Positions 21,321-44,075 of a DNA stretch of 64,000 nt are shown here, piece by piece; the stretch's first letter is position 1, and each line of letters opens with the position of its first letter. The stretch lies in the IMG/VR virus record IMGVR_UViG_3300032243_001145, positions 51,320-115,319 of that record; one strand, given 5' to 3'. Below the pieces are notes generated by a model. The model did not search any database. It was not told the origin of the DNA and saw only the letters and a program-made list of their open reading frames with translations. The position numbers were made by a program, and so were the translations under genes. The DNA is from a virus (Duplodnaviria > Caudoviricetes).

Positions 21321-22910
21321 TTATTTGACTTTTGGACCGTCGCCCTTGGGGTTTCTGGCTTCTCCGCTTTTATCTGGAGCATTTGCGGACCTTTGTTGGT
21401 CTCGCTTTTTATTACCAGTTGACTTTGCTTTTTGATCGGCTACTTGCTGAGGCTTTAAATCCACCATTTCGTCTCCGCCCTCAACAGTTGTCATATTCTT
21501 TCTAAGACGAACTTCATTAGGGGTAATGACCTGCATTCTCAAATAAATTTCATCAATACGGCTTTGAGTTTCTTCATCAGTAAGACTTAATTCATTAAAC
21601 TTTAATTGCACAACATCTGTTTTTTCTGAAATCAAATAATTTAATTTCTTTTCAAGTCTATCTTGTGACGGACGGCAAACCTGTTCTTTAAATGTTTTAT
21701 CGGCATCTCTGGCTGCAGCAAGGTTGATTCCTTCTGGAATACCAATTTTGCTAATTGGAACACGGTGAGCCAAAAGAATTTCATCTCTATTAGACTTACG
21801 ATAGATATTAAATGAAGACTCTTGTTCGCCTGCTTCAATCGGCTCCATTTTAAATTCAGTTTTTGAGTCTGGCGTATCAGCTGGAAGTGGGATATATAGA
21901 GATCTGTGATTTTTTCCCTTTAGTCCAACCTGAAAAAATTCAAGAAGTTTTCTTTCTGACTCTGGTGAAAGTTTTGCTCCTTTTACTGTAATTATATATC
22001 TTGGGACTGCTTTATTTTCAAAGTAGTCTAAGTTATATCTACCAGCAAATTCATTTCCTGCCAGCGCTTGCTGTGCTGCAATAATATCTGGTACTCCGTA
22101 GTAGTTATTCATTGGAGTGTATTTTTTTAAATGAATAATCTCATTTGGTCTATCTTCTTGACCAGCAATTGGACTTGGAGTTTCAAGATCACCAAAGTTA
22201 CGGAAGTAAACTGCTTTTCCATAAAGTAGTTGAATAAATCCGTCACGTAATCTACGTACACGCATCGTTTTAGCTGGTATATGGCCTATATAGCCTATAT
22301 CTCCAGCAGTAGTACGTCCTATCTCTATGTACCCATTTCCAGTCGCCTCAAGGTCTGTGTAGGCCTTTATAAGGGTCTCTGTAAATGATTCTTCTTCATT
22401 ACAATCATCTAGCCATTTGTCTAGCTGAGTTTTAATTCTATCAATTTTTGAACGAGCTCTATCTGCTTGCTTTTGATCAGTTATAGCATCCATTGCATCT
22501 TTTGCTTTAGATGTTTCTGTAAACATATATCCTAGGCCAACAATATTTGAAACCTTAGCATTGATGGCTGCATAGTTATAAGTAGAGACTTCATAAATTT
22601 TTGAAAGGTATTCTAAATTATATGTTGGCTCTACAAGATCAAATAATGCATATCCGCTAATTGCTTGCTGAAGCAGATTCTGTTGTGTGCCTACGCCAGA
22701 TGTTCCAACAAATGCTTTTGAAAAATCACGATTAATTTTACGTTTAAAATTTGTTCCAAGGCCTCTTAATTTTTTAATTTCTTCTAGGCCTATTTTAAAT
22801 GGATCTTCTGATTCTTCTGCTTTTTGAAAATGAAACCAGTCAGATGTATTTGAAATATCTATTGTATTTGATGAATTGTCATCGTCTAAAAATTCTATGT
22901 TGCGTGTCAT
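21321..22910 (-). CDS. Portal protein
   Basis: 'DLEATGNGYIEI', 'YYGVPDI', 'ITPNEVR' portal motifs; upstream of the protease. Confidence 0.92.
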   Translation of the reverse strand: MTRNIEFLDDDNSSNTIDISNTSDWFHFQKAEESEDPFKIGLEEIKKLRGLGTNFKRKINRDFSKAFVGTSGVGTQQNLLQQAISGYALFDLVEPTYNLEYLSKIYEVSTYNYAAINAKVSNIVGLGYMFTETSKAKDAMDAITDQKQADRARSKIDRIKTQLDKWLDDCNEEESFTETLIKAYTDLEATGNGYIEIGRTTAGDIGYIGHIPAKTMRVRRLRDGFIQLLYGKAVYFRNFGDLETPSPIAGQEDRPNEIIHLKKYTPMNNYYGVPDIIAAQQALAGNEFAGRYNLDYFENKAVPRYIITVKGAKLSPESERKLLEFFQVGLKGKNHRSLYIPLPADTPDSKTEFKMEPIEAGEQESSFNIYRKSNRDEILLAHRVPISKIGIPEGINLAAARDADKTFKEQVCRPSQDRLEKKLNYLISEKTDVVQLKFNELSLTDEETQSRIDEIYLRMQVITPNEVRLRKNMTTVEGGDEMVDLKPQQVADQKAKSTGNKKRDQQRSANAPDKSGEARNPKGDGPKVK

Positions 22911-25123: not shown

Positions 25124-26245
25124 CTACTGCTCTTCTAGTATTTTTACTCTTGCTGTAAGCTCTTGTACCGCTTTAATTAATGGAGAAATAAACTCTTCGT
25201 ATCTCAATGCCTGTTGACCCTCTGGGTCAGCGACATCTGATATTACCCATCCGCCAAAGTCTGCTACTCCAGCAGCATCTAATACTGATTTAACTTCTTG
25301 TGCAATTAAGCCATAATGCGTTCTGCTTCCATCTATCTTATTATACTTAACAGGATTAAGGTTATTTATAAAATCTAAACCAAGGTCTGATGTTATTATG
25401 TTTTCTTTTGTTCTTGCATCAGATATCACTGTGGCTGCGGAATTTAAATATATGTTTTTCCAGCCTCTTGTTGTGCGCTGGTCTCCAGGTGGATTCAATG
25501 GGCCCATTAGACCTAACGAATAAAGATTTGTGGTTAAAGGAAACCAGTTTGAATTTACTCCTATTGTGGAAATATCTGTTGCTGAGTAATTTAATGAAAT
25601 TCTTGTAGCAATAGGATCTATGTTTGCATTTGTTCCAGCTGGTCCTGCTGGTCCAGTTGCTCCCGCTGCACCGTCAGCACCACGGGGTATTGTAAAGTTT
25701 AAAACTACATTACTTGATGTTCCAGTATTTGTAACAATAGCGTTTGTTCCTGCTGCACCTGTAGTTACTGGGCTAGCAATAGTAATTGTTGCTGCTGCAT
25801 CACCTTTTGGACCAGTTGCTCCAGTTGCTCCAGTTGCTCCAGTTGCTCCTACTGGTATAACAAAATTTATTGTTTGTGATGGAGATGTCCCAGTAATAGA
25901 AACTTGTGGTTGTGTTCCTGGGGCTCCAGCGGTTACTGTTCCAGGAGTTAATACATTAGCTGGGCCTGGGCCACCTAAAACTCCATCAGCACCTCTTGGG
26001 ATATTAAAAGTTAAATGTTGCGTTGGCGCTGCACCACTAATATACACAGAAGCTTGCTCTCCCGCAGAAATCGTATTAGTTGCAATTACATCCAAGGCAT
26101 TAGCAGGACCTGAAGGCCCTTGTGGGCCTGGATGTGCAGCAATATATGCAGCAATATCATTTCCAAGAATACCAAGATCTCTAGGAACGTCGGGTGAGTC
26201 CGTGTAAGTTGGAAAGTGCCATCCATTAACGCCTGTAGTTGCCAT
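25124..26245 (-). CDS. Collagen-like tail fibre with C-terminal intramolecular chaperone (peptidase S74)
   Basis: Gly-X-Y repeats; 'SDARTKENI...LNPVKY...GLIAQEV...LIKAVQEL'. Confidence 0.85.
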   Translation of the reverse strand: MATTGVNGWHFPTYTDSPDVPRDLGILGNDIAAYIAAHPGPQGPSGPANALDVIATNTISAGEQASVYISGAAPTQHLTFNIPRGADGVLGGPGPANVLTPGTVTAGAPGTQPQVSITGTSPSQTINFVIPVGATGATGATGATGPKGDAAATITIASPVTTGAAGTNAIVTNTGTSSNVVLNFTIPRGADGAAGATGPAGPAGTNANIDPIATRISLNYSATDISTIGVNSNWFPLTTNLYSLGLMGPLNPPGDQRTTRGWKNIYLNSAATVISDARTKENIITSDLGLDFINNLNPVKYNKIDGSRTHYGLIAQEVKSVLDAAGVADFGGWVISDVADPEGQQALRYEEFISPLIKAVQELTARVKILEEQ

Positions 26246-26262
26246 TTTTTAATTATACCATC

Positions 26263-26922
26263 TTACTTTTTATATACTGAAATTGGAGACATAAACCTGG
26301 AACCACTTTTAATATTAGATACTCCATGTTTATAGGGTTCTACTGAAGGGAACATTATAAGGCTGCCAGCTTTTGGCTTTAAGTCTATTCCATGTCCAGG
26401 AAAATATATTTCTCCACCTTCATAATCATCATTTAGATATGTAACAATAGAAAATGAAAGTCCTTTATGTCCGTCTTGATTATCACAATGTGGTCCCATA
26501 CCTTCACCAATATTCCATTTTCTAATTGGAATCATATTAAGGTCTAGATCGTAATCGTCTTTATTTAATCCATGACCATCCATATATTTTACAAAACACA
26601 TTTCTGTAGCCATAATAAAGCTATTTGATATATATTTAATTTTTTGATCTAGTCTTTCATCACCAGATGTTTGTGATAGATTTGAAGTTTTTATAATTTT
26701 ACTTGATCCATAAATATGATCGTTTTTATTACTGGATATCCAGTCTTCCCATTTAGTTATTGATCCATGAGATTTTTCTAATAAATCAACCTCATTAATA
26801 AAATTAAGAAGCTCTTCTGGATAACTTAAAACATTTTCAAAATACCAAATATTATTTTCTAAAACCGTTAAATCAAACATGTGATACATTTTTTGTGCCA
26901 TTTCATCTTGGCTACTAATCAT
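26263..26922 (-). CDS. Fe(II)/2OG dioxygenase (prolyl-4-hydroxylase-like)
   Basis: HCD...YLNDDYEGGE...HGV...R facial triad and 2OG-binding Arg. Confidence 0.88.
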   Translation of the reverse strand: MISSQDEMAQKMYHMFDLTVLENNIWYFENVLSYPEELLNFINEVDLLEKSHGSITKWEDWISSNKNDHIYGSSKIIKTSNLSQTSGDERLDQKIKYISNSFIMATEMCFVKYMDGHGLNKDDYDLDLNMIPIRKWNIGEGMGPHCDNQDGHKGLSFSIVTYLNDDYEGGEIYFPGHGIDLKPKAGSLIMFPSVEPYKHGVSNIKSGSRFMSPISVYKK

Positions 26923-27676
26923 TTTTTTTAACCTCTTTTACTGGAATTTTTTCTCCAGTTGGAGTTAGAACTAAACCTTTTTCTCTAACCTCTTCCCAAA
27001 CTTTTTGTTCTTCTTTTTGATAAGCTCTTACTCCTGCAAGTTCTTTTGCCCACTGGTCTCTAATCTCTTGTGGATAATCAGACTCTTCTCTATCATCCCA
27101 AAATGATCCCAAAGTATATCTTTCTTTTTCTTTTACAACTGTAACTTCGTGCATATTTTTATGTCCACCATGAAATATTAAAAATGATCCTGATTTTGGA
27201 GTAATTTCCATTGGGTCTTTACCGTCTTGAAAGTAAAACTTTAAAGTGCCACCTTCAAAATCATCATTTAAATACAAAAATCCTGCGTATCTACTTCTAG
27301 TAAATGCTCCCATTTTGCCTTCGTTATCGCTATTGTCAGAATGCTTTGGAGCAAATGCTCCTGGTAACCACCTTTGACTATGAAAACTTATTTTTGACAT
27401 TTTTTCTACAGGCTGACCTGCAACTTCAGCGGCAGCTTTTTTAAATCTTTCTTGAGTGTCTGTAAACCAAGTTGAGCTTAAGCCTACTTCTGATAATATA
27501 GGATCGTTGTCTGGTGGGTACATAGCTGAGTATGATTCATAAAAAGAAATGCCTTTCCAGTAACCAGGATCAGCTTCTTCAAATTTTTTAAAAATTTTAA
27601 TTACTGCATCACATTCTTCTTTTGTAATAAAATTATCATATTGAAAAATGTCTTCTGTTAGCTTAGTAAGTTTCAT
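26915..27676 (-). CDS. Fe(II)/2OG dioxygenase (P4H-like)
   Basis: HSD...YLNDDFEGG...HEV...RY; start likely MKLTKL. Confidence 0.88.
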   Translation of the reverse strand: MKLTKLTEDIFQYDNFITKEECDAVIKIFKKFEEADPGYWKGISFYESYSAMYPPDNDPILSEVGLSSTWFTDTQERFKKAAAEVAGQPVEKMSKISFHSQRWLPGAFAPKHSDNSDNEGKMGAFTRSRYAGFLYLNDDFEGGTLKFYFQDGKDPMEITPKSGSFLIFHGGHKNMHEVTVVKEKERYTLGSFWDDREESDYPQEIRDQWAKELAGVRAYQKEEQKVWEEVREKGLVLTPTGEKIPVKEVKKND

Positions 27677-28496
27677 TTTTGTTCTTTTCTTTTGATAAAA
27701 TTTCTTTATATTCTTCATATTCTACTGGCTTGCCATCTTTTAAATAACGCATATTTCTTGGATCATCATAATCAATTCTTTCTGATTCCATCTTTGCCCA
27801 TCTATATGCTCCCCATTTTAATTGATTGTCTAGCCATTCTTTTGTTCCAGGAAAAGTGTGCATAATAAAATTTCTTACAAAAAACTTTTCTCCATTATGA
27901 ATTGTCTTTACACCGTGATAATATGGCTCTATTGATGGGAAAACAACAATATCTCCTGCTTCTGGCTTATGATTTGTAAGAACTCCATCTACATAAAATT
28001 CAATATCTCCGCCATCATAATCATCATTTATATACATTGTGCATGTTATAAAAAACTTTTCTCCTGGAGCATCTTTTTGTGATGTGATGTGATCTGTGTG
28101 ATACTGCATTGTCATGTTATTGCTTAATACATCAACCTGATCAAAATATTTTGAAAAAGAACATCCACTAAATCTCCATCCTTCTGGCAATTCAACATTT
28201 GTTTTTTCAACATAATCCATGATTACTGCATTGTAGGCTTCTTGAATTTCATCATAAAAAGCTTTTTCTTTTATATACATATCTTGAGATTTATCAATTT
28301 GCTCAGTCTCTCTATCGTCTTTTATTTGACTGTAAGTTCCAAAGTGTGCCCACTGGTCCCATTTTTTTAAAAAATATTTTCCTTCAGAAGTTTTTTCAGA
28401 CTCTTTCATAACTTCATAAAGATTTTTTACATCTTTTAAAACATTTTTGTAAACAAAAACTTTAGGGTAGATTTCATTATATTCTAAATTATTCAT
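27663..28496 (-). CDS. Fe(II)/2OG dioxygenase (P4H-like)
   Basis: HTD...YINDDYDGG...HGV; start likely MNNLEY. Confidence 0.88.
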   Translation of the reverse strand: MNNLEYNEIYPKVFVYKNVLKDVKNLYEVMKESEKTSEGKYFLKKWDQWAHFGTYSQIKDDRETEQIDKSQDMYIKEKAFYDEIQEAYNAVIMDYVEKTNVELPEGWRFSGCSFSKYFDQVDVLSNNMTMQYHTDHITSQKDAPGEKFFITCTMYINDDYDGGDIEFYVDGVLTNHKPEAGDIVVFPSIEPYYHGVKTIHNGEKFFVRNFIMHTFPGTKEWLDNQLKWGAYRWAKMESERIDYDDPRNMRYLKDGKPVEYEEYKEILSKEKNKNETY

Positions 28497-29170
28497 GGTT
28501 GTTTTTCTCCTGTGTGCTTCATTATTGTCCAAAAAAATGGTGATGTAAATCTATTTCCAGATCTTACTGGTCTTACCCCGTGAGTGTAAAATCTATCCCC
28601 TGGGAAAAAATAAGCTGCGCCAGCTTTTGGTTTAAACTCTATTCCATGTTGTGGAAAATAAAGCTCCCCACCTTCATAGTCATCGTTAAAATAAAAAAGT
28701 CCTGCTATGTCGTAGTGTGGGAAATCGTTTGGCCTACCTTTTTCAATTCCAGTATGAAATTCTTTGTCGGCATGTGGTTCTTGTCTTGCTCCAACAGGCC
28801 ATCTAACAATTGCTGGACCAGTCTCTCTAACATCAACATTAAAAAATTTATCAACTTCTATTTTTAATCTTGCAATCATATTGTTAATTAAATCTAATAT
28901 TGTTGGATCCGACGCCATAAGAGATTTATATGTGCAGACTCTGTCTTTCCAAACATCTGCATCGTATAAAACTAATCCGTCTTCATCTACATGAGTCTCT
29001 GTTTTGTCCCATATTTTATTATTTAAAGCAAAATCCATTAATCTTTTTCTTTCATCAATACTAAGAAAATTTTCTAGCTCAACAATATTTTCTGAGGATG
29101 ATCCAAAAAAACCCGAAGGAGTCATTGATTTGGGTATGTGCATATGTAAATCTTTATTAACTATTTCCAT
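28493..29170 (-). CDS. Fe(II)/2OG dioxygenase (P4H-like)
   Basis: HAD...YFNDDYEGGE...HGV...RF. Confidence 0.9.
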   Translation of the reverse strand: MEIVNKDLHMHIPKSMTPSGFFGSSSENIVELENFLSIDERKRLMDFALNNKIWDKTETHVDEDGLVLYDADVWKDRVCTYKSLMASDPTILDLINNMIARLKIEVDKFFNVDVRETGPAIVRWPVGARQEPHADKEFHTGIEKGRPNDFPHYDIAGLFYFNDDYEGGELYFPQHGIEFKPKAGAAYFFPGDRFYTHGVRPVRSGNRFTSPFFWTIMKHTGEKQP

Positions 29171-29226
29171 TTTTTCTCTTTTCGGTATTGTGTTTTGCTT
29201 TTGGTATACTTAATTTTACCATATAA

Positions 29227-29922
29227 TTAATTAATTTCCTGTATTTCAAATTTAAAGCTATTAATCTCATGTTTTCCTATTTTATTTCCTTCGTGATCTA
29301 TTGCTTTTTTGTACCAATCTGAGGTTCTAGAATTAATCCTGCCATACTCTGTCATTGCCTCTACATAATCAAACCCGTGTATTACATCCGTAGGAGGAGT
29401 ATCATTAATAATTGCCGTTGAGTTATTAATTTGAGATAAAGATATTGGAACAATTGCTGCAACTGGTGTGCCAGCTTTTATTGTTATAACTTTATTTGGA
29501 GATGTCACTTTCCAAACAATATGTAAAGCACCAGTATAAAATGAAGTAGAAATTATTGATGTAAAACATTGTGCTCCATCTACAAATTGATTTGGAACTG
29601 GAATAGATAGGAGGCTAAGATTTTCATTTGTTTTAAAAACTAAATTTGTTGGAAAGCCTATAACTCCTCCGCCTCTTTCAAAATAACAATGTTCTTTTCC
29701 AGACAAAACTTCAATATCTCCATCATGGCCTTCTGTTGATTTGCCTTTCCAAATAAAAGAAATATCAACTGGAAAGGATATACCAAAACCCATTTTATTT
29801 GGAAGTGTTATTGGAAAACAGTTATATGCATATTTATTTTCATGCATCCATTCTCTATTGGATTCAAGTGGTGACAGTATTGTTTTTGGACCTTCTGTTT
29901 TATAAACATAAACTTTATTCAT
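29227..29922 (-). CDS. DUF6065-like protein
   Basis: 'REWM...AYNCFPITLPNKMGFGI' N-terminus; paralog of the adjacent gene. Confidence 0.65.
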   Translation of the reverse strand: MNKVYVYKTEGPKTILSPLESNREWMHENKYAYNCFPITLPNKMGFGISFPVDISFIWKGKSTEGHDGDIEVLSGKEHCYFERGGGVIGFPTNLVFKTNENLSLLSIPVPNQFVDGAQCFTSIISTSFYTGALHIVWKVTSPNKVITIKAGTPVAAIVPISLSQINNSTAIINDTPPTDVIHGFDYVEAMTEYGRINSRTSDWYKKAIDHEGNKIGKHEINSFKFEIQEIN

Positions 29923-30619
29923 TATTTTTGTTTACCTTAAGCCTTATAGCCTTAACTTGATGCTTTCCTATAGAGTTGCCTAGATGATCTAATGCATCTC
30001 TATAAAAATTTGTCCACTTGCCAGTTCTGTTTATTTCATATACAAAATTTGCATATTCATTTGAATTAAAAGATTTTGGCGGCAAAGAACTAATTTCTTC
30101 AAAATTTATTTTTGAGTCTTGAAGATCTTCTAAATTAATAGGCAAAATAGAAAAAATTGGAGTGTTTGCTTTAATTGTTATTTCAATATTTGGCCTTGTA
30201 ATTCTTAATGCACAGGGAAGCTCTCCTCTAAAAAAAGAAGAGCTAATCAAAGTAGTAAATGGCTGAATTCCGTCTCTTAAATAATTTGGAACAGGCATAG
30301 TCAAAATGCTATAATTGCTTTCAGTTTTAAACATTATTCCTGTATTAAAGCTTACGGTTGAATTTCCTCTTTCTGCATAAGCATATTTTTCTCCTGCAAG
30401 TATTTTAACATGCTCAGCACTGGAATCTGAAATTCCATCCCATATAAATGTTATATCTTCTGGAAAAGATATGCCCCACCCAAGTTGATTTGTTAAACTT
30501 ATTGGAAAACATTTATAAGCATGTGCTTCCCAGGTTTCATCCATCCAATCTCTTTTAGCTGAAAGCTGTGATATGTCTGCATAACCTTCTCTTATTTGAT
30601 AAGCTTTAATTTCTGGCAT
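29915..30619 (-). CDS. DUF6065-like protein
   Basis: 'RDWMD...HAYKCFPISLTNQLGWGI'; start likely MPEIKA. Confidence 0.65.
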   Translation of the reverse strand: MPEIKAYQIREGYADISQLSAKRDWMDETWEAHAYKCFPISLTNQLGWGISFPEDITFIWDGISDSSAEHVKILAGEKYAYAERGNSTVSFNTGIMFKTESNYSILTMPVPNYLRDGIQPFTTLISSSFFRGELPCALRITRPNIEITIKANTPIFSILPINLEDLQDSKINFEEISSLPPKSFNSNEYANFVYEINRTGKWTNFYRDALDHLGNSIGKHQVKAIRLKVNKNNE

Positions 30620-31265
30620 TTCTTCTTTCAACCATACTTCTATATTCATCATTATGAGCATTATCATTATAGTCAAGCATTGTAACAATAGAATACTTTG
30701 TTCCTTCTTTGACAGGCATAGCTATATGAGAATAAATATATGTAGATGGAAAAATATAAAGATCTCCAGCTTTTGGCTTAACTGTAATATTTAATTTTGG
30801 AAACGCTAGTTCTCCTCCCAAATATTCTTCATTTGGATAAGCCACTAAAGAAACTGTTGAACTATAAGAAAACCCATGATCAGCATGTTCTTGAAAATGT
30901 TGTCCTGGACCATATGAAATAAAATTCATTACTTCCCAAAAATCCATCCTTACATTATGTGCAGCGCAATAATCTTCAGCTGCTGGGCCCTGTACTTTTT
31001 TTGCCAACTTCCATATTTCATTTAATTCATAATCATATTCATTTTGAGGATATTCTATGGGGCCTAATTTTATATCTTTGCAATCTCTATAGTCTAATTT
31101 TTTTTCATTGTATCCAACAGTAGCATCTCTCCATGAATAGCCACCATTGCTTTTGTCAATTAAATTAACTAGGCGTTCCATTAAATTTAGTTCTGGTTTT
31201 ACAACATCTCTATACACCCAAAGTCCTGGAAATATTATTTCTTTTGTAGTCCACGTTTGTTCCAT
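30606..31265 (-). CDS. Fe(II)/2OG dioxygenase (P4H-like)
   Basis: HAD...YPNEEYLGGE...H...KY. Confidence 0.88.
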   Translation of the reverse strand: MEQTWTTKEIIFPGLWVYRDVVKPELNLMERLVNLIDKSNGGYSWRDATVGYNEKKLDYRDCKDIKLGPIEYPQNEYDYELNEIWKLAKKVQGPAAEDYCAAHNVRMDFWEVMNFISYGPGQHFQEHADHGFSYSSTVSLVAYPNEEYLGGELAFPKLNITVKPKAGDLYIFPSTYIYSHIAMPVKEGTKYSIVTMLDYNDNAHNDEYRSMVERRNARN

Positions 31266-31279
31266 TTTTTCTCTTTCTC

Positions 31280-31858
31280 TTATTTATATTCTAGCATATC
31301 ATTTGGCAATATGTCAATAATTATATGTACTCTATCAAAATCAGTTGGGTTAGAAACAGAATGAAGCATTTGATTGTTTATTTCGTACCATCCGCCTTCT
31401 TCCATATGTATAGTATTGTCCATTACAGTAAAAGTTATTAATTTTTTTGTAATTATAGGAATATGTACTCTTCTTGAATAATGAAGTAGGGCTCCACCAT
31501 CAACGTGTTTTCTTATATAAGATTTAGATTTTAATTTAACAAACTCACATCTTATTATTTTGCCAGAATAATAGTTTTCTAAATCATTAAAAATTTTTTT
31601 AAGTTCTTTATTTGATAATTCATTTTTAAGAGAATTAACATAATTAGTTTTAATTGGATCACCAACAGCCCATTCATAATCTGTTTCACAAATTCTAAAC
31701 ATTTCCGTGTCTGTGTGCGTGTATCCTTTTTTTTGTCTACTTTGATCTAAAAGCCATTCTTCAGAAAATTTTTCAATTTCATTTTTTATTTCTTTGACTT
31801 CAAATTCTCCTAATTTTAAAATTGACCATTCAGTATTCTTTTTTAATCTTTTGTACAT
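31280..31858 (-). CDS. Aspartyl/asparaginyl beta-hydroxylase-like oxygenase
   Basis: 'HVD...RVHIPIIT...HSVSN...RVHIIID'. Confidence 0.8.
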   Translation of the reverse strand: MYKRLKKNTEWSILKLGEFEVKEIKNEIEKFSEEWLLDQSRQKKGYTHTDTEMFRICETDYEWAVGDPIKTNYVNSLKNELSNKELKKIFNDLENYYSGKIIRCEFVKLKSKSYIRKHVDGGALLHYSRRVHIPIITKKLITFTVMDNTIHMEEGGWYEINNQMLHSVSNPTDFDRVHIIIDILPNDMLEYK

Positions 31859-32537
31859 AATCGTACATCTCCATATCTAATGAATTTAACTCTTTGATTT
31901 TGTCTATGTGTTTTTTATTAAATTTAATTCCTACATCATAAGAAGAATTTGCTTTATCCGAATGCTTAAACGTCATAAAACCAAACTCTTTTAATAAACT
32001 TTTATTTAAATCTATTTTAAATTGATCAAGCTCATCTAACGTATAAGCTTTCATTTTTTTAATATTTAAAATTACATCTTTTATATTTAATTTATATTCT
32101 TCTAAATACCAAGCACTATTTACTGTATTTTGAAATTGTAAGACATCTTCATTAAATTTTTCTATATTTAATTTACCAGTTAAAAATTTTGATTGTAAAT
32201 TAGATTGCATTGTAGACTCTTCTCCATAAAGCCATCTATCTAATTTTTCTTCAGCTTCTTTTCCTGTTCTTTTTGGCCCTGTTGTATATTTAAAGTAGCT
32301 TATAAATCTTTCTACTGGGTCCCTAACTATTGTAAAAATTTCTGGGTTTTCCATATATTCTAATGGCATCAATCCAAAATGACCACCTACAAATTTACTT
32401 TTTTTAATTTTTTCTGTGTCTATTTTAGTTCTATTTGATATAAAATGTTCTACCCCATTTGATATCAAATGGGGTATTACATTATTTTTTATGTATATGC
32501 CAGATGTTCTTGGAATATGCAAATGATATATTGACAC
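31830..32537 (-). CDS. Sulfotransferase-family protein
   Basis: 'HLHIPRTSG' 5'-PSB-like loop and 'RDPVERFISYF' 3'-PB-like motif. Confidence 0.75.
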   Translation of the reverse strand: MSIYHLHIPRTSGIYIKNNVIPHLISNGVEHFISNRTKIDTEKIKKSKFVGGHFGLMPLEYMENPEIFTIVRDPVERFISYFKYTTGPKRTGKEAEEKLDRWLYGEESTMQSNLQSKFLTGKLNIEKFNEDVLQFQNTVNSAWYLEEYKLNIKDVILNIKKMKAYTLDELDQFKIDLNKSLLKEFGFMTFKHSDKANSSYDVGIKFNKKHIDKIKELNSLDMEMYDYVQKIKKEY

Positions 32538-33871
32538 TAAAACCCTTTACGGTTGTGTACTATCAGGTCTCCTGCAATTAAAATATCGTTTGGAGAAGCA
32601 TCAAATTCATAAACGGTTCTTTCTTCATTTATAATTTTTGTTGATTCTACCATTACCTCTTCAAAAATATTTTCATTATTTTTTACAAATATAGAATCTC
32701 CTGGTTCAATAATTCCTGTTGTACTAAAGAAATATGTGCCTTTCTTTTTTGTAAGAATGGTTTGTTCTAGTGAGAATCTCTTAGAGTAATCATCATTAAT
32801 AATCATGGTTGCATCTTTTATAGAAGATTTTATTGTTTTAATTTCAGATTTTACTAAATGAATATTATTAATTGATTCTGATGACCATGTGTATGGATCT
32901 ATTGCAAACTCGTCCATCTGACCATCCCATGTAGCTGACCATATTTGATCTCCGATTTGCATTTCTTTTGCTTTTTTAAATCCTATCAGATCTCCTGGTG
33001 TAACTACCATTATTAGTGTGTCTTCATCAATACACCAGAAGCTTGGTGGTGAGAAGAAGCTTGGTGGTGAGAAGAAGGTTGGTGGTGAAAAGAATCCTGG
33101 TGGTGAAAAGAATGTTGGTGGGAAGAACGGTGGTGAGAAGAAGCTTGGTGGTGAGAAGAAGCTTGGTGGGAAGAACGGTGGTGAGAAGAAGCTTGGTGGT
33201 GAGAAGAAGCTTGGTGGGAAGAACGGTGGTGAGAAGAAGCTTGGTGGGAAGAACGGTGGGAAAAACGGTGGGAAGAACGGTGCAAGTGTTGTAACCTGAT
33301 TAGAGCCAGCAGACTCTAATGAAACCCCATTTGCATTTGTAGCTTTCACATAATATGTTTGCGATGTATTAGCAGTTTCAGCAACAGTATATGATGTTGA
33401 TCCTGTTGAATATGTTGGGCCATCGCTTGATCTTAGTGTGTAAGTTGTTATTCCCTTTCCGCCATCTGCAGGAGCAGACCAAGAAACATAGTCTTGATTT
33501 ACCTGGGCTGTTGCAGATGGAGCGGAAGGGGTTGCTGGAACTGTAGTTGATGTTATAGCAGTAGATGCTGAAGAATCAGGTGATGTTCCATAAGAATTTG
33601 TTGCTGTTATTGTAAATGTATAAGAAGTGGCAGAAGCCAATCCTTCTACTACTATAGGGGATGAGCTTCCTGTTGCTGTTTGACCACCAGAAGAAGTGAC
33701 TGTAAATGATGTTGCTGGATAAGTTCCGTCTGGAGTAAATGATACAGTAGCTGCACCATTATTGTATGCCCGATTTGTTCCTATATCTGTTGCAGATACA
33801 TTTGTTGGAGCAAATGGAGCTAGGAAATTATCCTGTCCTGATGATTTAATACCAAATTTTTTGTTAGCCAT
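32537..33871 (-). CDS. FN3-domain protein with Pro/Phe/Ser repeat and C-terminal Hint domain
   Basis: Two FN3-like repeats, then ~80 aa of FFPP/SFFSPP repeats, then W|CIDEDT...LIVHN-RKGF Hint signature. Confidence 0.85.
   Translation of the reverse strand: MANKKFGIKSSGQDNFLAPFAPTNVSATDIGTNRAYNNGAATVSFTPDGTYPATSFTVTSSGGQTATGSSSPIVVEGLASATSYTFTITATNSYGTSPDSSASTAITSTTVPATPSAPSATAQVNQDYVSWSAPADGGKGITTYTLRSSDGPTYSTGSTSYTVAETANTSQTYYVKATNANGVSLESAGSNQVTTLAPFFPPFFPPFFPPSFFSPPFFPPSFFSPPSFFSPPFFPPSFFSPPSFFSPPFFPPTFFSPPGFFSPPTFFSPPSFFSPPSFWCIDEDTLIMVVTPGDLIGFKKAKEMQIGDQIWSATWDGQMDEFAIDPYTWSSESINNIHLVKSEIKTIKSSIKDATMIINDDYSKRFSLEQTILTKKKGTYFFSTTGIIEPGDSIFVKNNENIFEEVMVESTKIINEERTVYEFDASPNDILIAGDLIVHNRKGF
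33041..33283 (-). repeat. Coding tandem repeat (12/18-nt units encoding FFPP and SFFSPP)
   Basis: Repeated gagaagaagcttggtggt and gggaagaacggt units on the plus strand. Confidence 0.95.
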
Positions 33872-33897: not shown

Positions 33898-36540
33898 TTA
33901 AGCTGTTAGGTCTCCAAGAAGTACCCATGTATTTGCTGCTCTTTTTACAAGAGTTGCAGATGACCATTGTGCACGAAGCTTGTTTCCTGGTGTGTAATTT
34001 AATGTTACGCCAGCTGCAGGTGACACTGTTAATGCTCCAGCTCCTACTCTCAGAATATCCAAAGATGTTCCTACTGGATAGTTTGTTGATGAATCTGCTG
34101 GAATTGTTAATGTTGTAGCTCCTGCTGCATTTATTTCAATTAATGAATCACGTTCTGAAAGATTTGAAAGAGTATAGTCTGTTGTTTTTGAAATAATTGT
34201 TGTTCGTGATGGAACACCTTCTTTTGTTTGTGTTCCGTCTGTAAATGCTACACCTGAAGCAGAAGCGGTAATTAGTGCTGTTGCTGTAATTGCTGGGGCT
34301 GTAACTGTACCAGTAAATGTTGGTGAGGCAAGCGGAGCTTTAGTTGCAATTGAGTTTGTAATTGTTGTTGAGAATGATGCGTCATTTCCAAGAGCAGTTG
34401 CAAGTTCATTAAGAGTATCAAGTGCTGCTGGTGCTGATGCTACAAGTGCTGAAACTGCTGTTCCTACAAATGCTGTAGTTGCAACTTGTGTTGTAGATGT
34501 TCCAGCTGCTGCAGTTGGTGCAGTAGGCACACCAGTAAGTGCTGGTGAAGCAAGAGGAGCCTTGAGATCAAGAGCTGCTTGTGCTGCAGTTGAAATTGGC
34601 TTAGCTGAATCTGCTGTATTATCAGCATTTCCAAGCCCTACCATTGTCTTTGTAATACCAGATACTGTACCAGTAAATGTTGGTGAGGCAAGTGGTGCCT
34701 TTAATGCAAGACCTGAGTTAACAGTTGCAGTTAAAGCAAGAGCTGAAGTGTCTGCAATTCCATGTACATTTGTTGTACCTGAAGTATGTGTTGTAAGGGA
34801 TGCAGATGATGCTTTTGTATTAATTTGTGTTTGAAGGTTGTCTGCGTTTGTATTAATTGCAGTGACATTAGATTTAATTGTATCTATATCAGATGTATGT
34901 GTTGCTATATTTGTTGTAGCTGTACCAACTGAAGTATTTATAGTATTAATTTGTGTTTGTATTGAAGATGTTACTCCATCTAGTGTAGCAATTTCTAACT
35001 GAGAAACACCACCAATGGAAGTTGTACTTGGTAAAACAACTGTTCCCGTAAATGTTGGGTTAGCAATTGGCGCTTTTGTAGATCCAAGAGCTGTTGCGTC
35101 TGCTTGTAAAGTTGTTATATTTGAAGAATTTGTTGAAAGAGTTGAATTTATTGCAGAAAGGTCTGATACAAGACTTGCAATTTTGCTTTGTGCAATTGCT
35201 GCTGATGCATTAATATCTGCGTTAAGAATTGTTCCATCTGCAATCATTGAAGAAGTAATTGTTCCTGTAGGAAGAGTTACTGTTCCAGTAAATGTTGGGG
35301 AAATTTTTGCAGCGTATGTTGATTGTGCATCAGATATGCTAAGCTTTGAATCTAATTGTGTTTGAATTGGGCTTGTAACACCATGAACTCTTTGTATTTC
35401 AGCATTAGTTGTATCACCAATTTTTGCTGCATCTGCAAACAATCCTCCAACTTCAAGAGCATCTTTTGTATATGTTGTAAAATCAACAACCGTGGTAGGC
35501 TCTGCTGTTACTCCAGAGAATAGTTTCCATATGCCATCTGAAGCATCTCTTACAATACCTGAGTGCTGATATGTTCCATTATTAAATGCTGCTACAACAC
35601 CAAGGTCTAAAGCATTTGATTGATTGTTATCGCCAATGTAGATCATTGGGTCATCAATTGAAACATTTGTTGAATTTACAGTTGTAGTTGTTCCATTAAC
35701 TGTTAAGTTTCCAGAAATTGTTATATTTTGTGTATTAACATCTGTTGCTGAGACTGTTTGAACCTCAACTAATGGAGCAGTAAATTTTGTTGATGCATTA
35801 ATTACTGCAGGAAGTGAAAGTGTTATTCCTGTTCCACTTGAATCATTTGTTTTAACAATTCCTGAACCTGCTGTTATATTTTCAGATAATGTAAATGTAT
35901 TTGCAGAATCGTTGTAAGTTGTGGATATTCCACGTCCAGCAACAATTGTAGAAGCAAGTACGTCTTCAACTCTTTCATCAATATTTAGCTGTGCTGTTGG
36001 AACAAATCCTGAGCTGTCTAGTGATGCAACTCCATTAGCAACTCCACGATCTGAAACAGGTATGTAGTCTGTGTCAACTGTATTTGCAAGTCCTGAAATT
36101 TGATTATCTACATATGTTTTATTTGCAATTACAGATGTATCAACAGCAACTGTTAGTGTATTTGCTGCATCATCATATACTTTAGTAATACCTGTTCCAG
36201 CTGTTAAGGCTGAGTTAACTGCATCTTGTGCTAGTTCGTTGAAATATGAAGCATCTACTGCAATGGTAATTGTATTTGCACCATCGTTATATGTCTTTGT
36301 AAGACCACTACCCATTGTAAGGGCTGAATTAATTGCGTCTTGGGATATTTCACCAATCGCTACGTCTGAATTATTTGCATATGCAAGGGCAGTCCATGTA
36401 GAAGAACCATTACCGAATTTAAATAGGTTAGTGTCTGACTCTACACCCATTTCTCCTGCTGCCAAAATTGGATTTACTGAGGTCCACTGTGAAGCTGTTC
36501 CTCTTCTTACTTGAATTCTTACTGTTGACATATTTGCCAC
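33898..36540 (-). CDS. Tail fibre-like protein with Mtd N-terminal-type domain
   Basis: 'IQVRRGTASQWTSVNPILAAGEMGVESDT' N-terminus; APLASPTFTG repeats; LDTLNELA motif. Confidence 0.75.
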   Translation of the reverse strand: MANMSTVRIQVRRGTASQWTSVNPILAAGEMGVESDTNLFKFGNGSSTWTALAYANNSDVAIGEISQDAINSALTMGSGLTKTYNDGANTITIAVDASYFNELAQDAVNSALTAGTGITKVYDDAANTLTVAVDTSVIANKTYVDNQISGLANTVDTDYIPVSDRGVANGVASLDSSGFVPTAQLNIDERVEDVLASTIVAGRGISTTYNDSANTFTLSENITAGSGIVKTNDSSGTGITLSLPAVINASTKFTAPLVEVQTVSATDVNTQNITISGNLTVNGTTTTVNSTNVSIDDPMIYIGDNNQSNALDLGVVAAFNNGTYQHSGIVRDASDGIWKLFSGVTAEPTTVVDFTTYTKDALEVGGLFADAAKIGDTTNAEIQRVHGVTSPIQTQLDSKLSISDAQSTYAAKISPTFTGTVTLPTGTITSSMIADGTILNADINASAAIAQSKIASLVSDLSAINSTLSTNSSNITTLQADATALGSTKAPIANPTFTGTVVLPSTTSIGGVSQLEIATLDGVTSSIQTQINTINTSVGTATTNIATHTSDIDTIKSNVTAINTNADNLQTQINTKASSASLTTHTSGTTNVHGIADTSALALTATVNSGLALKAPLASPTFTGTVSGITKTMVGLGNADNTADSAKPISTAAQAALDLKAPLASPALTGVPTAPTAAAGTSTTQVATTAFVGTAVSALVASAPAALDTLNELATALGNDASFSTTITNSIATKAPLASPTFTGTVTAPAITATALITASASGVAFTDGTQTKEGVPSRTTIISKTTDYTLSNLSERDSLIEINAAGATTLTIPADSSTNYPVGTSLDILRVGAGALTVSPAAGVTLNYTPGNKLRAQWSSATLVKRAANTWVLLGDLTA

Positions 36541-43615: not shown

Positions 43616-43616
43616 T

Positions 43617-44075
43617 TTATGAACCTCCTGCATCAACAATTATACCATCGTTGTCTGCAGAACTTCCTCCTTCTAGAACTTCGTCTTGTACTACTGTAAC
43701 GCTGCCTTCTGGGTTTCCGCCATCAAGCAATGTTTGGTTTTCAAATGTTCCGCCTTGGTTTGATGTTGAAGGACTTTGTCCGTCGTATCCAATTACAAAT
43801 GGTAATACTAGATCGGGAGAATCTGAAGTATTTGTTTCATTAAATGTAATCTTATTCTGAACATCAATTGTATGAACATTTCCATCAAATGTGTGAGTAT
43901 GCATATAAAATGGTGTTGGGTCTGTGCTTGGCGGGGTAAGCTCTACCCAAACCATACCATTGTATATTCTTAAATTCTTACTTATTACATTGAAGTATAT
44001 ATCTCCAACAGTGGCTATGTCGGGGTTCTCCATAGAAGTAAGAAGATTAAGTGCAACCTTCATTTGTCTGGACAT
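43617..44075 (-). CDS. Hypothetical virion protein
   Basis: 152-aa ORF with acidic DGG-rich C-terminus, in the fibre operon. Confidence 0.5.
   Translation of the reverse strand: MSRQMKVALNLLTSMENPDIATVGDIYFNVISKNLRIYNGMVWVELTPPSTDPTPFYMHTHTFDGNVHTIDVQNKITFNETNTSDSPDLVLPFVIGYDGQSPSTSNQGGTFENQTLLDGGNPEGSVTVVQDEVLEGGSSADNDGIIVDAGGS

What the first reader, a model, noticed from the sequence alone, without database searches (positions are those of the whole stretch)
26263..33871. Candidate new protein-modification system: FN3-(PPFF)n-Hint precursor followed by nine coupled tailoring genes
Seen: a gene encoding FN3 domains, ~80 aa of almost pure Pro/Phe/Ser repeats and a Hint domain heads a run of overlapping or abutting genes: sulfotransferase-like, Asp/Asn beta-hydroxylase-like, P4H-like oxygenase, two DUF6065-like, then four more P4H-like oxygenases. 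The run is embedded among virion fibre genes. Known: Fe(II)/2OG enzymes hydroxylate Pro and other residues in peptides, Hint domains autoprocess, and RiPP clusters pair a repetitive precursor with tailoring enzymes. Inference: a phage-encoded RiPP-like/PTM pathway that hydroxylates, and perhaps sulfates, the repeat. After Hint cleavage the repeat would be exposed as the C-terminus of a virion appendage or released as peptides (adhesion, shielding, metal binding or membrane interaction). I know of no characterised system with this architecture.
Basis: partly seen in the sequence, partly recalled or inferred. Interest (0 to 1): 0.9.

Follow-up and report, generated by a model that had tools for sequence, protein, structure and literature searches.

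The report
Phage Pro-Phe repeat protein with hydroxylases
A complete 115-kb uncultured phage encodes, among its tail-fibre genes, a protein with an 82-residue proline/phenylalanine polymer capped by a self-cleaving-type (Hint) domain. Nine enzyme-like genes follow it, and across about 140 related phage fragments these always accompany proline-rich versions of the polymer, so the polymer is the likeliest substrate of these orphan phage oxygenases, though no chemistry has been shown.

Summary
On the minus strand, 26263-33871 holds ten abutting or overlapping genes:
- a 444-aa FN3-FN3-(PPFF/PPxFFS)15-Hint protein
- a sulfotransferase with intact PAPS motifs
- an AspH-like oxygenase
- five P4H-like 2OG/Fe(II) oxygenases with intact HxD..H+K/R
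- two DUF6065 proteins, which model as a dUTPase fold without the motif-III aspartates

Tail-fibre genes flank the block.

**Co-occurrence, forward.** Among 80 loci found through the repeat protein, all 54 Pro-rich repeats are followed by at least 3 such oxygenases plus DUF6065. All 26 Pro-poor aromatic repeats (FSPFGVFG, FTPY) lack DUF6065 and carry other genes instead.

**Co-occurrence, reverse.** Among loci found through DUF6065, 62 of 62 informative ones have a Pro-rich repeat gene upstream.

**Limits.** On a tree this amounts to only 3-6 independent switches. The Hint cap is optional: 36 of 81 rows lack a Cys1-type Hint. Sulfotransferase and AspH are accessory. A RiPP label is not supported.

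**Best reading (about 0.6).** This is a phage-encoded cassette that hydroxylates its own fibre-module repeat protein.

The same system was found earlier by this scan on at least six other genomes. I found no paper describing it. No modification has been demonstrated.

The parts
33281..33871 (-). Repeat protein, residues 1-197: conserved N-terminal segment of about 20 aa plus two FN3 domains
   Evidence: Pfam fn3 at residues 21-104, 6.7e-6. The model has pLDDT above 90 and Foldseek matches tandem FN3 pairs at E about 1e-9.
33035..33280 (-). Repeat tract, residues 198-279: 15 units of PPFF or PPxFFS, ending in Trp279
   Evidence: Composition is 31 P, 31 F, 16 S, 2 T, 1 G, 1 W. Tandem repeats with periods of 12, 15, 18, 30 and 48 nt. 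Model pLDDT is 42-60, so it is probably disordered or extended.
32537..33034 (-). C-terminal Hint (intein-like) domain, residues 280-444, from Cys280 to His439-Asn440 followed by RKGF, plus the stop codon
   Evidence: The family profile hits the Pho RadA intein at 4e-6 and BIL 2lwy at 2e-5. The Cys is invariant in 39 relatives and the C-terminal Asn is nearly invariant. The block-B His is replaced by Gln or Glu. The +1 residue is Arg.
31830..32537 (-). Sulfotransferase-like gene (235 aa); shares 1 nt with the end of the repeat-protein gene
   Evidence: Pfam Sulfotransfer_2 at 1.6e-5, 25.6 bits against a cut-off of 22. Conserved P9-R-T11-S-G13 (5'-PSB-like) and R72-D-P74..R77..S80 (3'-PB-like) motifs across 17 homologues.
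31280..31858 (-). Asp/Asn beta-hydroxylase-like 2OG oxygenase (192 aa)
   Evidence: Pfam Asp_Arg_Hydrox at 1.9e-11. H118-x-D120, H166 and R176 are conserved in 14 homologues.
30606..31265 (-). P4H-like 2OG/Fe(II) oxygenase Ox1 (219 aa)
   Evidence: Pfam 2OG-FeII_Oxy_3 at 2.2e-12. The nearest solved sequences are the Bacillus anthracis P4H 3itq/5hv0 at 1e-4 and PBCV-1 P4H 5c5t at 0.045. H127-x-D129, H180 and K190 are invariant in 27 orthologues.
29915..30688 (-). DUF6065 protein a (257 aa from TTG 30688, or 234 aa from ATG 30619)
   Evidence: Pfam DUF6065 at 9.1e-30. The model has pLDDT 89.9. It has a dUTPase fold, with VIA Z 10.8 to EIAV dUTPase and dUTPases in the top 14 rows. The motif-III aspartates are replaced (LISSSFFRGEL).
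29227..29922 (-). DUF6065 protein b (231 aa), 38% identical to protein a
   Evidence: Pfam DUF6065 at 2e-25. Identity. This second copy is present in only some relatives.
28493..29170 (-). P4H-like oxygenase Ox2 (225 aa)
   Evidence: Pfam 2OG-FeII_Oxy_3 at 8.4e-9. HxD..H plus Arg retained. Orthologues are 83-87% identical in L001-L004.
27663..28532 (-). P4H-like oxygenase Ox3 (289 aa from the TTG start)
   Evidence: Pfam 2OG-FeII_Oxy_3 at 9.7e-9. HxD..H plus Lys retained.
26915..27718 (-). P4H-like oxygenase Ox4 (267 aa)
   Evidence: Pfam 2OG-FeII_Oxy_3 at 1.2e-11. HxD..H plus Arg retained.
26263..26922 (-). P4H-like oxygenase Ox5 (219 aa)
   Evidence: Pfam 2OG-FeII_Oxy_3 at 4e-10. HxD..H plus Arg retained.
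33898..36540 (-). Upstream neighbour: tail-fibre protein (880 aa) with an Mtd_N N-terminal domain (context only)
   Evidence: Pfam Mtd_N at 7.6e-13 and many tail-fibre PHROGs. It keeps this position in relatives.
25124..26245 (-). Downstream neighbour: fibre protein (373 aa) with short collagen-like runs and an S74 intramolecular chaperone domain (context only)
   Evidence: Pfam Peptidase_S74 at 1.9e-13 and tail-fibre PHROGs. GXY runs at residues 133-150 and 189-206.

Best explanation
This is a phage-encoded cassette, inside the tail-fibre module, that tailors one of the phage's own proteins.

**Substrate (inferred).** The substrate is the 444-aa protein. Two FN3 domains carry an 82-residue, uncharged, probably extended (PPFF/PPxFFS)15 tract.

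**Enzymes (inferred).**
- The five anciently diverged P4H-like 2OG/Fe(II) oxygenases hydroxylate prolines of the PP pairs. Each probably acts in a different sequence context.
- The two DUF6065 proteins have a dUTPase fold without the catalytic aspartates. They are obligatory non-dUTPase accessory components of unknown chemistry.
- The AspH-like oxygenase and the PAPS-type sulfotransferase are optional add-ons. They may add a further hydroxyl and a sulfate, fed by the phage's own APS-kinase-like gene.

**Hint cap (inferred).** The Hint domain forms a thioester at Trp279-Cys280 and removes itself. This leaves FN3-FN3-repeat with the repeat as the C-terminus, which is the form that many relatives encode directly.

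**Shown here:** gene content, intact catalytic motifs, folds, and the two-way co-occurrence of Pro-rich repeats with the oxygenase/DUF6065 block.

**Inferred only:** the substrate, the hydroxylation, the sulfation, the cleavage and the virion location.
For: **Forward co-occurrence.** Among 80 related loci, all 54 with Pro-rich repeats (Pro at least 0.28, or at least 10 PP pairs) have at least 3 PF13640-type oxygenases and at least 1 DUF6065 directly downstream. All 26 with Pro-poor aromatic repeats have no DUF6065 and at most 2 such oxygenases.

**Reverse co-occurrence.** Starting from DUF6065, 62 of 62 informative loci have a repeat gene upstream. In the 60 that the automatic screen scored, the Pro fraction is at least 0.31. 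The other 2 were identified by hand and carry 37 and 12 PP pairs.

**Tree.** On a tree of the FN3 region, repeat type and DUF6065 presence each change 6 times and coincide in all 81 rows.

**Paralogues.** The five oxygenases are only 18-28% identical to each other, but 53-87% identical to their positional orthologues in other phages. They are therefore old and kept separately.

**Catalytic residues.** All six oxygenases keep the iron and 2OG ligands. The nearest solved sequences are P4Hs.

**Sulfation supply.** The sulfotransferase keeps PAPS-binding motifs. The genome encodes an APS-kinase-like protein. In L009 that gene sits next to the block.

**Hint.** The nucleophile Cys is invariant and the terminal Asn nearly so. 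The profile hits inteins and a BIL domain. Hint-less orthologues end at the cleavage point.

**Operon structure.** The ten genes form a tight co-directional array with overlaps, set between fibre genes.
Against: - No chemistry of any kind is available.
- The co-variation could reflect inheritance of one linked cassette. Only 3 independent pairs lie on well-supported branches (sign test p = 0.25), and 6 on all branches.
- The genome has three further PF13640 oxygenases and a third DUF6065 elsewhere, among recombination genes. These families therefore also work away from the repeat gene.
- Bacterial DUF6065 genes have no oxygenase or repeat neighbour.
- The dUTPase fold of DUF6065 hints at a nucleotide ligand rather than a protein one.
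- The Hint lacks the block-B histidine, so cleavage efficiency is uncertain.
- In PBCV-1, the closest precedent, hydroxyproline was not detected in virions (PMC7019647).
- Virion incorporation of the repeat protein is inferred from gene position only.
Confidence: 0.6

Rival explanations
1. Linkage without enzymology. The oxygenase/DUF6065 block acts on something else, such as host proteins, a small molecule or 2OG pools as proposed for cyanophage oxygenases. It merely travels with the Pro-rich repeat gene as one hypervariable fibre-region cassette.
For: - Only 3-6 independent switches underlie the perfect correlation.
- The same enzyme families also occur elsewhere in this genome, away from the repeat gene.
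- Phage 2OG oxygenases are common and have no known substrate. Published proposals are DNA repair or 2OG modulation (PMC3037559).
Against: - The association held in 54 of 54 versus 0 of 26 loci, and in 62 of 62 loci in the reverse direction. It held over 35-77% protein identity, and with different caps (Hint, Cys-rich tail, none) and different gene orders.
- Pro-poor repeat genes at the same genomic position carry other gene families instead.
- The genes have overlapping reading frames with the repeat gene.
Confidence: 0.22
2. The hydroxylases modify the collagen-like (Gly-X-Y) tail fibres nearby, as collagen P4Hs do, and not the Pro-Phe repeat.
For: - Two fibre genes in the window carry collagen-like runs. 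These are 41387-43639 (Pfam Collagen, 8e-8) and 25124-26245.
- The nearest solved relatives are collagen-type P4Hs.
Against: - Within 10-kb flanks, runs of at least 8 GXY triplets occur in 3 of 54 loci with the block and in 8 of 26 without it.
- In the window's runs, Pro sits only in the X position (GPQ, GPA), never as X-Pro-Gly.
Confidence: 0.05
3. The block is a nucleotide or DNA modification pathway. DUF6065 would be a dUTPase-like nucleotide-binding protein, and the oxygenases and kinase-like genes would act on bases or nucleotides.
For: - DUF6065 has a dUTPase fold (Z 10.8).
- A third DUF6065 with an oxygenase lies among the RecA, RuvC and Cas4-like genes.
- PHROGs labels some related families as DNA enzymes.
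Against: - The oxygenases match PF13640 and P4H, not Tet_JBP (only 0.068, below cut-off).
- DUF6065 has lost the motif-III aspartates.
- This reading does not explain the strict tie to the Pro content of the neighbouring protein.
Confidence: 0.05
4. A true RiPP-like pathway. The repeat is cut out and released as modified peptides with a function away from the virion.
For: - The layout is a repetitive core followed by tailoring enzymes.
- Asp hydroxylases and sulfotransferases occur in some RiPP pathways (from my own knowledge, not tested here).
Against: - Pfam finds no leader or recognition element, protease or exporter among the ten genes.
- The 'precursor' has two folded FN3 domains and a conserved N-terminus, and it sits in the fibre module.
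- Many orthologues are simply FN3-FN3-repeat.
Confidence: 0.04

Closest known systems
Chlorovirus PBCV-1 prolyl 4-hydroxylase (A085R; PDB 5c5t) and that virus's own Pro-rich repeats
   Same: A virus encodes a small P4H-type 2OG/Fe(II) oxygenase and also proteins with Pro-rich tandem repeats that the enzyme hydroxylates in vitro (Eriksson et al. 1999, as cited in PMC7019647). Ox1 matches 5c5t weakly (0.045).
   Different: - Here the virus is a bacteriophage.
- There are five to nine diverged paralogues rather than one.
- They lie directly next to the candidate substrate.
- The repeat is Pro-Pro-Phe-Phe, not Pro-Ala-Pro-Lys.
- DUF6065, a sulfotransferase, an AspH-like enzyme and a Hint cap are added.
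- In PBCV-1 the biological role is unknown, and Hyp was not found in virions (PMC7019647).
Collagen, extensin and bacterial P4Hs (for example Bacillus anthracis P4H, PDB 3itq/5hv0)
   Same: Same Pfam family. The HxD..H plus basic-residue active site is the same. These are the nearest solved sequences (1e-4). They hydroxylate Pro in repetitive, extended Pro-rich tracts.
   Different: Identity is low. No peptide-substrate-binding domain and no PDI-like subunit is evident. The substrate motif has no Gly-X-Y or Ser-Pro4 pattern.
Bacterial intein-like (BIL) domains and Hedgehog-type Hint autoprocessing domains
   Same: The domain is a C-terminal or internal Hint fold with an N-terminal Cys and, as in A-type BILs, a C-terminal His-Asn. 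There is no +1 nucleophile and no homing endonuclease. Cleavage rather than splicing is therefore expected. The profile hits BIL 2lwy at 2e-5.
   Different: - The block-B Thr-x-x-His reads Ser-Leu-Glu-Gln.
- The domain is fused directly to a Pro/Phe polymer.
- Only four residues follow the Asn.
- In sister phages the domain is replaced by a Cys-rich tail or by nothing.
Multi-copy 2OG-Fe(II) oxygenases of marine cyanomyoviruses
   Same: Several PF13640-type oxygenase genes per phage genome, with no known substrate. They match the same PHROG (phrog_61). Proposed roles are DNA repair or 2OG handling (PMC3037559).
   Different: Here the genes form one array next to a specific repeat protein whose Pro content predicts their presence. 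This gives a concrete candidate substrate.
Trimeric dUTPases
   Same: The predicted fold of DUF6065 matches dUTPases (Z 8.4-10.8 over 111-129 residues). A motif-III-like stretch is recognisable.
   Different: The catalytic aspartates of motif III are serines. The C-terminal part is helical rather than a motif-V arm. Identity is 9-22% across those dUTPase rows. dUTPase activity is therefore unlikely.

Membership tests
P4H-type 2OG/Fe(II) oxygenase (Pfam PF13640) | Profile match above the curated cut-off | tested here: met
   All five score 36.5-48.2 bits against a cut-off of 27.
P4H-type 2OG/Fe(II) oxygenase (Pfam PF13640) | His-x-Asp...His iron triad and a distal Lys or Arg for 2OG | tested here: met
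   H127, D129 and H180 are invariant among the five paralogues. A K or R lies 10 residues after the distal His in each. The same residues are invariant in 27 Ox1 orthologues.
P4H-type 2OG/Fe(II) oxygenase (Pfam PF13640) | Hydroxylates peptidyl proline | not testable with these tools
   This needs an enzyme assay or mass spectrometry. The only indirect support is that the nearest solved sequences are P4Hs and that presence tracks the Pro content of the neighbouring repeat.
Hint / intein superfamily (BIL-like autoprocessing domain) | Sequence or profile similarity to Hint domains | tested here: met
   A profile of 29 relatives hits the Pho RadA intein at 4.2e-6, BIL 2lwy at 2e-5 and MJ0781 at 8e-5. 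11 of 29 members hit Pfam Intein_splicing at 0.01 or better, the best at 1.5e-7. The window's own sequence alone is below the Pfam cut-off.
Hint / intein superfamily (BIL-like autoprocessing domain) | N-terminal Cys or Ser nucleophile (block A) | tested here: met
   Cys280 in the motif C-I-D-E-D-T is invariant in 39 aligned relatives. Some sister clades have Ser at this position.
Hint / intein superfamily (BIL-like autoprocessing domain) | Block-B Thr-x-x-His | tested here: not met
   The aligned position reads S-L-E-Q in the window. It is Q, E or occasionally H in relatives.
Hint / intein superfamily (BIL-like autoprocessing domain) | C-terminal His-Asn (block G) | tested here: met
   The sequence is V-H-N at residues 438-440. 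The Asn is nearly invariant.
Splicing intein | +1 Cys, Ser or Thr on a C-extein that is ligated to the N-extein | tested here: not met
   The residue after Asn440 is Arg, and only RKGF follows. This is not a splicing intein.
DUF6065 (Pfam PF19541) | Profile match above the curated cut-off | tested here: met
   104.3 and 90.1 bits against a cut-off of 26.6. Bacterial members score 285-350 bits, so the phage copies are divergent.
dUTPase | Fold | tested here: met
   The model has pLDDT 89.9. VIA Z is 10.8, and dUTPases fill the top 14 rows. Foldseek E is 1.4e-4.
dUTPase | Catalytic motif III (G-x-I-D-x-D-Y-R-G-E) | tested here: not met
   The corresponding stretch reads L-I-S-S-S-F-F-R-G-E-L, read from the sequence. 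Both aspartates are replaced.
PAPS-dependent sulfotransferase (Pfam PF03567) | Profile match above the cut-off, plus 5'-PSB and 3'-PB motifs | tested here: met
   25.6 bits against a cut-off of 22. P9, T11 and G13, and R72, P74, R77 and S80, are at least 90% conserved in 17 homologues. The motif assignment is by inspection against textbook motifs.
Asp/Asn beta-hydroxylase family (Pfam PF05118) | Profile match and iron ligands | tested here: met
   44.5 bits against a cut-off of 22.6. H118, D120, H166 and R176 are conserved. The substrate residue is unknown, and the repeat has no Asp or Asn.
RiPP biosynthetic cluster | Leader or recognition element, dedicated protease or exporter beside the tailoring enzymes | tested here: not met
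   None of the ten products matches such a domain in Pfam at E of 0.1 or better. The 'precursor' carries two folded FN3 domains.

The most novel reading that the evidence does not exclude
The phage builds a new kind of virion appendage. It would be an extensin- or adhesive-like polymer of hydroxylated (and in some lineages sulfated) Pro-Phe units, displayed on FN3 domains. The Hint-generated C-terminal thioester would not simply be hydrolysed but would ligate the polymer covalently to another molecule, such as a fibre, a lipid or a host-envelope component. DUF6065 would be a dUTPase-fold protein recruited to a new, non-nucleotide role in protein tailoring. The interchangeable caps (Hint, Cys-rich knot, none) and the interchangeable enzyme sets for PPFF, FSPFGVFG and FTPY repeats would then form a modular 'repeat plus matched enzymes' code across a large clade of lake phages.
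Probability: 0.15. Interest if true: 0.9.

Novelty: new variant of a known kind. Interest (0 to 1): 0.72.

Why it matters
Phage genomes, cyanophages above all, carry many P4H-like 2OG/Fe(II) oxygenases. Their substrates have been unknown for about twenty years, and published guesses are DNA repair or 2OG handling (PMC3037559).

Here a large clade of uncultured phages places five to nine such enzymes directly behind a protein whose proline content predicts their presence. My searches found more than 850 homologues of the repeat protein and more than 560 DUF6065 loci. That gives a concrete substrate hypothesis that can be tested with synthetic genes alone.

The finding also:
- assigns a fold and a context to DUF6065, for which I found no paper;
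- shows a Hint domain used as a removable cap on a hydrophobic polymer;
- suggests that phages post-translationally decorate host-recognition appendages by hydroxylation and possibly sulfation, a layer of virion chemistry that sequence-based host-range prediction ignores.

Tried and rejected
- **Complex prediction.** The Ox1 plus DUF6065a job (collected) returned 'no answer' with score 0.00. It says nothing either way.
- **Megablast.** The 7.6-kb block found nothing among 50,697 phage records. tblastn of the repeat protein found only one weak Hint match, in Phage NCTB.
- **Literature.** A full-text search for 'DUF6065' found no paper. Searches on phage P4H found only general cyanophage and giant-virus papers.
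- **PDB profile searches.** DUF6065 and the u212/u213 family of Pro-poor loci gave nothing significant. For u212/u213 the only lead is an ESM-Atlas resemblance to 2OG-FeII_Oxy_5 clusters, which Pfam does not confirm.
- **Bacterial DUF6065.** It is present in 22 of 201 sampled genomes of one bacterial class, a tally that includes one unpublished genome, G033, on which no claim here rests. Its neighbours are unrelated to each other (RTX proteins, MFS, PQQ dehydrogenase, chemoreceptor, GlgB). No oxygenase lies within 1.5 kb, so this gives no functional clue.
- **Genome-contig scan for DUF6065.** It returned only nine contigs, in MAGs of four phyla, all with the phage arrangement. These are probably phage contigs binned into MAGs.
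- **Collagen-substrate idea.** Rejected on distribution and on Pro position.
- **Promoter and terminator scan.** No excess over shuffles (51 versus 56 promoter-like sites; 6 versus 6.5 terminator-like sites).
- **Hint versus sulfotransferase/AspH.** All but one of the 17 rows with either gene have a Hint. Independent pairs give only 1-3 concordant changes, so this is noted but not claimed.

Full report
**Setting**

The window is 64 kb of a 115,319-bp virus record with direct terminal repeats, judged complete. G+C is about 35%. Its capsid protease is only 45% identical to those of 130-kb Streptomyces siphophages. Megablast finds nothing among deposited phages. The region of the finding lies in the structural module:
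- a portal gene at 21321-22910
- a LamG-like 602-aa protein
- a fibre with an S74 chaperone domain at 25124-26245
- the ten-gene block
- an Mtd_N fibre at 33898-36540
- further fibres, one of them collagen-like, at 41387-43639

**Observation**

All ten ORFs are real and co-directional on the minus strand. They overlap by 1-83 nt or are separated by 14-56 nt.

Pfam supports the following:
- one FN3 domain
- a Sulfotransfer_2 protein
- an Asp_Arg_Hydrox protein
- five 2OG-FeII_Oxy_3 proteins
- two DUF6065 proteins

The repeat is residues 198-279 of the first protein. It holds 31 Pro, 31 Phe, 16 Ser, 2 Thr, 1 Gly and 1 Trp, arranged as 15 units of PPFF or PPxFFS.

An AlphaFold model built on 39 relatives gives two confident FN3 domains, a low-confidence repeat and a confident C-terminal beta domain. 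Foldseek matches the N-terminal half to tandem FN3 pairs at E about 1e-9.

The C-terminal domain is a Hint domain by profile. It hits the Pho RadA intein at 4e-6, a bacterial intein-like domain at 2e-5 and MJ0781 at 8e-5. 11 of 29 relatives hit Pfam Intein_splicing. Its residues are as follows:
- Cys280 is invariant in 39 relatives.
- The C-terminal His-Asn is nearly invariant.
- The block-B His is replaced by Gln or Glu.
- The residue after the Asn is Arg, with four residues to the stop.

Cleavage is therefore plausible, and splicing is not.

**The enzymes look functional**
- The five oxygenases share only 18-28% identity, yet all keep HxD..H and a Lys or Arg ten residues after the distal His.
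- Their positional orthologues in other phages are 53-87% identical, so the paralogues are old and individually maintained.
- The nearest solved sequences to Ox1 are the Bacillus anthracis P4H (1e-4) and the PBCV-1 P4H (0.045).
- The AspH-like protein keeps H118-x-D120, H166 and R176.
- The sulfotransferase keeps a P-R-T-S-G motif and an R-D-P-x-x-R-x-x-S motif, which correspond to the two PAPS-binding motifs.
- Outside the window, the genome encodes an APS-kinase/nucleotidyltransferase-like protein beside luciferase-like genes and a second sulfotransferase-like gene.
- In a relative (L009, GenBank LR798257.1) the APS-kinase-like and luciferase-like genes lie contiguous with the block.

**DUF6065**

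I found no paper that mentions this family, and no solved structure matches it by sequence. A model with pLDDT 89.9 has a dUTPase fold. VIA gives Z 10.8, with dUTPases in the top 14 rows, and Foldseek gives 1.4e-4. A motif-III-like stretch is visible, but both aspartates are serines, so dUTPase activity is unlikely.

A further family found in many relatives, here called u245, is a distant DUF6065 homologue (hhalign probability 96.9%). The window's genome carries such a 245-aa copy, near an oxygenase gene, among RecA, RuvC and Cas4-like genes.

Bacterial DUF6065 genes occur in 22 of 201 sampled genomes of one class. That tally includes one unpublished genome, G033, on which nothing here depends. 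These genes have unrelated neighbours and no oxygenase nearby.

**Co-occurrence test, forward**

The repeat protein has more than 850 homologues, many on contigs of 90-120 kb. I examined 80 loci from IMG/VR and two assemblies, plus the window. All encode FN3-FN3 followed by an uncharged aromatic repeat, but the repeat comes in types.
- All 54 loci with Pro-rich repeats (PPFF-like) are followed by at least 3 PF13640-type oxygenases and at least 1 DUF6065.
- All 26 loci with Pro-poor repeats (FSPFGVFG, FTPY/FTPFA, Pro at most 0.23) have no DUF6065 and at most 2 such oxygenases.
- The Pro-poor loci instead carry u245 and/or a family of two paralogues, u212/u213. This family has no Pfam match. An ESM-Atlas lead points to 2OG-FeII_Oxy_5, and conserved His clusters are present.

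**Co-occurrence test, reverse**

A scan seeded with DUF6065 alone returned 80 loci, 76 of them new. 62 of the 76 had enough upstream sequence to judge.
- 60 have a repeat ORF directly upstream, with a Pro fraction of at least 0.31.
- The two apparent exceptions also have one, missed by my filter (37 and 12 PP pairs).

Nine MAG contigs show the same arrangement.

**How independent is this?**

On a tree of the FN3 region, repeat type and DUF6065 presence each change six times and coincide in all 81 rows. Only three independent pairs lie on well-supported branches (sign test p = 0.25), and six lie on all branches. The correlation is therefore perfect but rests on few events. Inheritance of one linked cassette cannot be excluded.

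**What is core and what is optional**
- 36 of 81 rows lack a Cys1-type Hint.
- In those proteins the sequence ends right after the repeat, carries a 17-28-residue tail with 6-9 cysteines, or carries a Hint-like domain that begins with Ser.
- The close relatives L005 and L006 end one residue past the position of Trp279, and they also lack the sulfotransferase and AspH genes.
- Sulfotransferase and/or AspH occur in 17 rows, and all but one of those have a Hint. The number of independent changes is too small to claim a link.

The conserved core is therefore the FN3-FN3-(Pro-rich aromatic repeat) protein plus the P4H-like oxygenases plus DUF6065.

**Rivals**
- *Collagen-like fibres as substrate.* This is disfavoured. 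Runs of at least 8 GXY triplets occur in 3 of 54 loci with the block and in 8 of 26 without it. In the window's runs Pro sits only in the X position.
- *Nucleotide or DNA modification.* The DUF6065 fold and the second DUF6065/oxygenase pair among recombination genes suggest it. It does not explain the tie to Pro content, and the oxygenases are not Tet/JBP-like.
- *RiPP pathway.* This lacks any leader, recognition, protease or export component.
- *Pure linkage.* This remains the main alternative.

**Comparison with what is known**

The nearest precedent is the PBCV-1 prolyl 4-hydroxylase, which hydroxylates Pro-rich repeats encoded by the same virus in vitro. Its role is unknown, and Hyp was not found in virions (PMC7019647). 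Cyanophage genomes carry several PF13640-type oxygenases of unknown function (PMC3037559). The Hint cap resembles A-type bacterial intein-like domains.

What is new here:
- the host type (a bacteriophage)
- the array of diverged paralogues beside the candidate substrate
- the Pro-Pro-Phe-Phe chemistry
- the obligatory dUTPase-fold partner
- the optional sulfation genes
- the interchangeable caps

This scan had already flagged the same system on at least six other genomes, with similar conclusions. Notes on this genome had also flagged the sulfation island and the non-splicing Hint. I re-tested those points independently.

**Verdict**

The most likely reading, at about 0.6, is a phage-encoded cassette that hydroxylates its own fibre-module Pro-Phe repeat protein, with Hint-mediated removal of a C-terminal cap. 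No chemistry has been shown. I class it as a new variant of a known kind (viral P4H with a viral Pro-rich substrate). It is of high interest because it makes the substrate question for phage 2OG oxygenases directly testable.

Noticed in passing
L059, L067, L070, L072-L076, L078, L080, L081, L083, L085 (C-termini of the repeat proteins): In many Hint-less relatives the Pro-Phe repeat ends in a tail of 17-28 residues with 6-9 cysteines, for example ...C-W-Q-A-C-P-x-C-C-G.... This is a third kind of cap besides Hint and none. It may be a knot-like or metal-binding cap. Its function is unknown.
   Followed up: partly
L028, L041, L047, L049, L068 (repeat proteins): Some relatives carry a C-terminal domain of 165-203 aa that starts with Ser or Ala where the window has Cys280 (K-S-[IV]-G-x-[DS]-T-L-I). 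My Hint query missed it. It is probably a Ser1 Hint variant.
   Followed up: no
G000:C1:7000-15000 (L087), outside the window: This region is a sulfur island. It holds a 253-aa APS_kinase plus cytidylyltransferase-like fusion (a possible miniature PAPS synthase), luciferase-like monooxygenase-like ORFs, a second sulfotransferase-like gene and another PF13640 oxygenase.
   Followed up: partly
G000:C1:33700-35600 (L086), outside the window: A third DUF6065 (245 aa, of the u245 type) and a 296-aa PF13640 oxygenase sit among RecA, RuvC-like and Cas4-like nuclease genes, away from any repeat protein.
   Followed up: partly
L008, L017, L024, L033-L039, L042, L046, L060-L062, L084: Pro-poor repeats of the FG type (F-S-P-F-G-V-F-G) are followed by one to four copies of an unannotated family of about 212 aa (u212/u213), which has conserved His clusters. 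An ESM-Atlas lead points to 2OG-FeII_Oxy_5. This looks like a parallel 'repeat plus matched enzymes' set.
   Followed up: partly
L006:3177-3536: A second gene about 7 kb upstream of the repeat protein in this 115.7-kb relative also encodes a Pro/Phe repeat similar to residues 200-279 of the window protein.
   Followed up: no
window 3887-13972 (-): A single ORF of 3,361 aa, followed by another of more than 1,150 aa that runs off the window start. I did not examine either.
   Followed up: no
L097 and L099 (bacterial DUF6065 loci): In two of five bacterial DUF6065 loci examined, the neighbouring gene encodes an RTX calcium-binding repeat protein. This may be chance, but it is another repeat protein beside a DUF6065.
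   Followed up: no
window 31288-31317 (-): An 11-of-12 match to a sigma-70 promoter, with a TG extension, lies just upstream of the Ox1 start inside the end of the AspH-like gene. The region as a whole has no excess of such sites.
   Followed up: no
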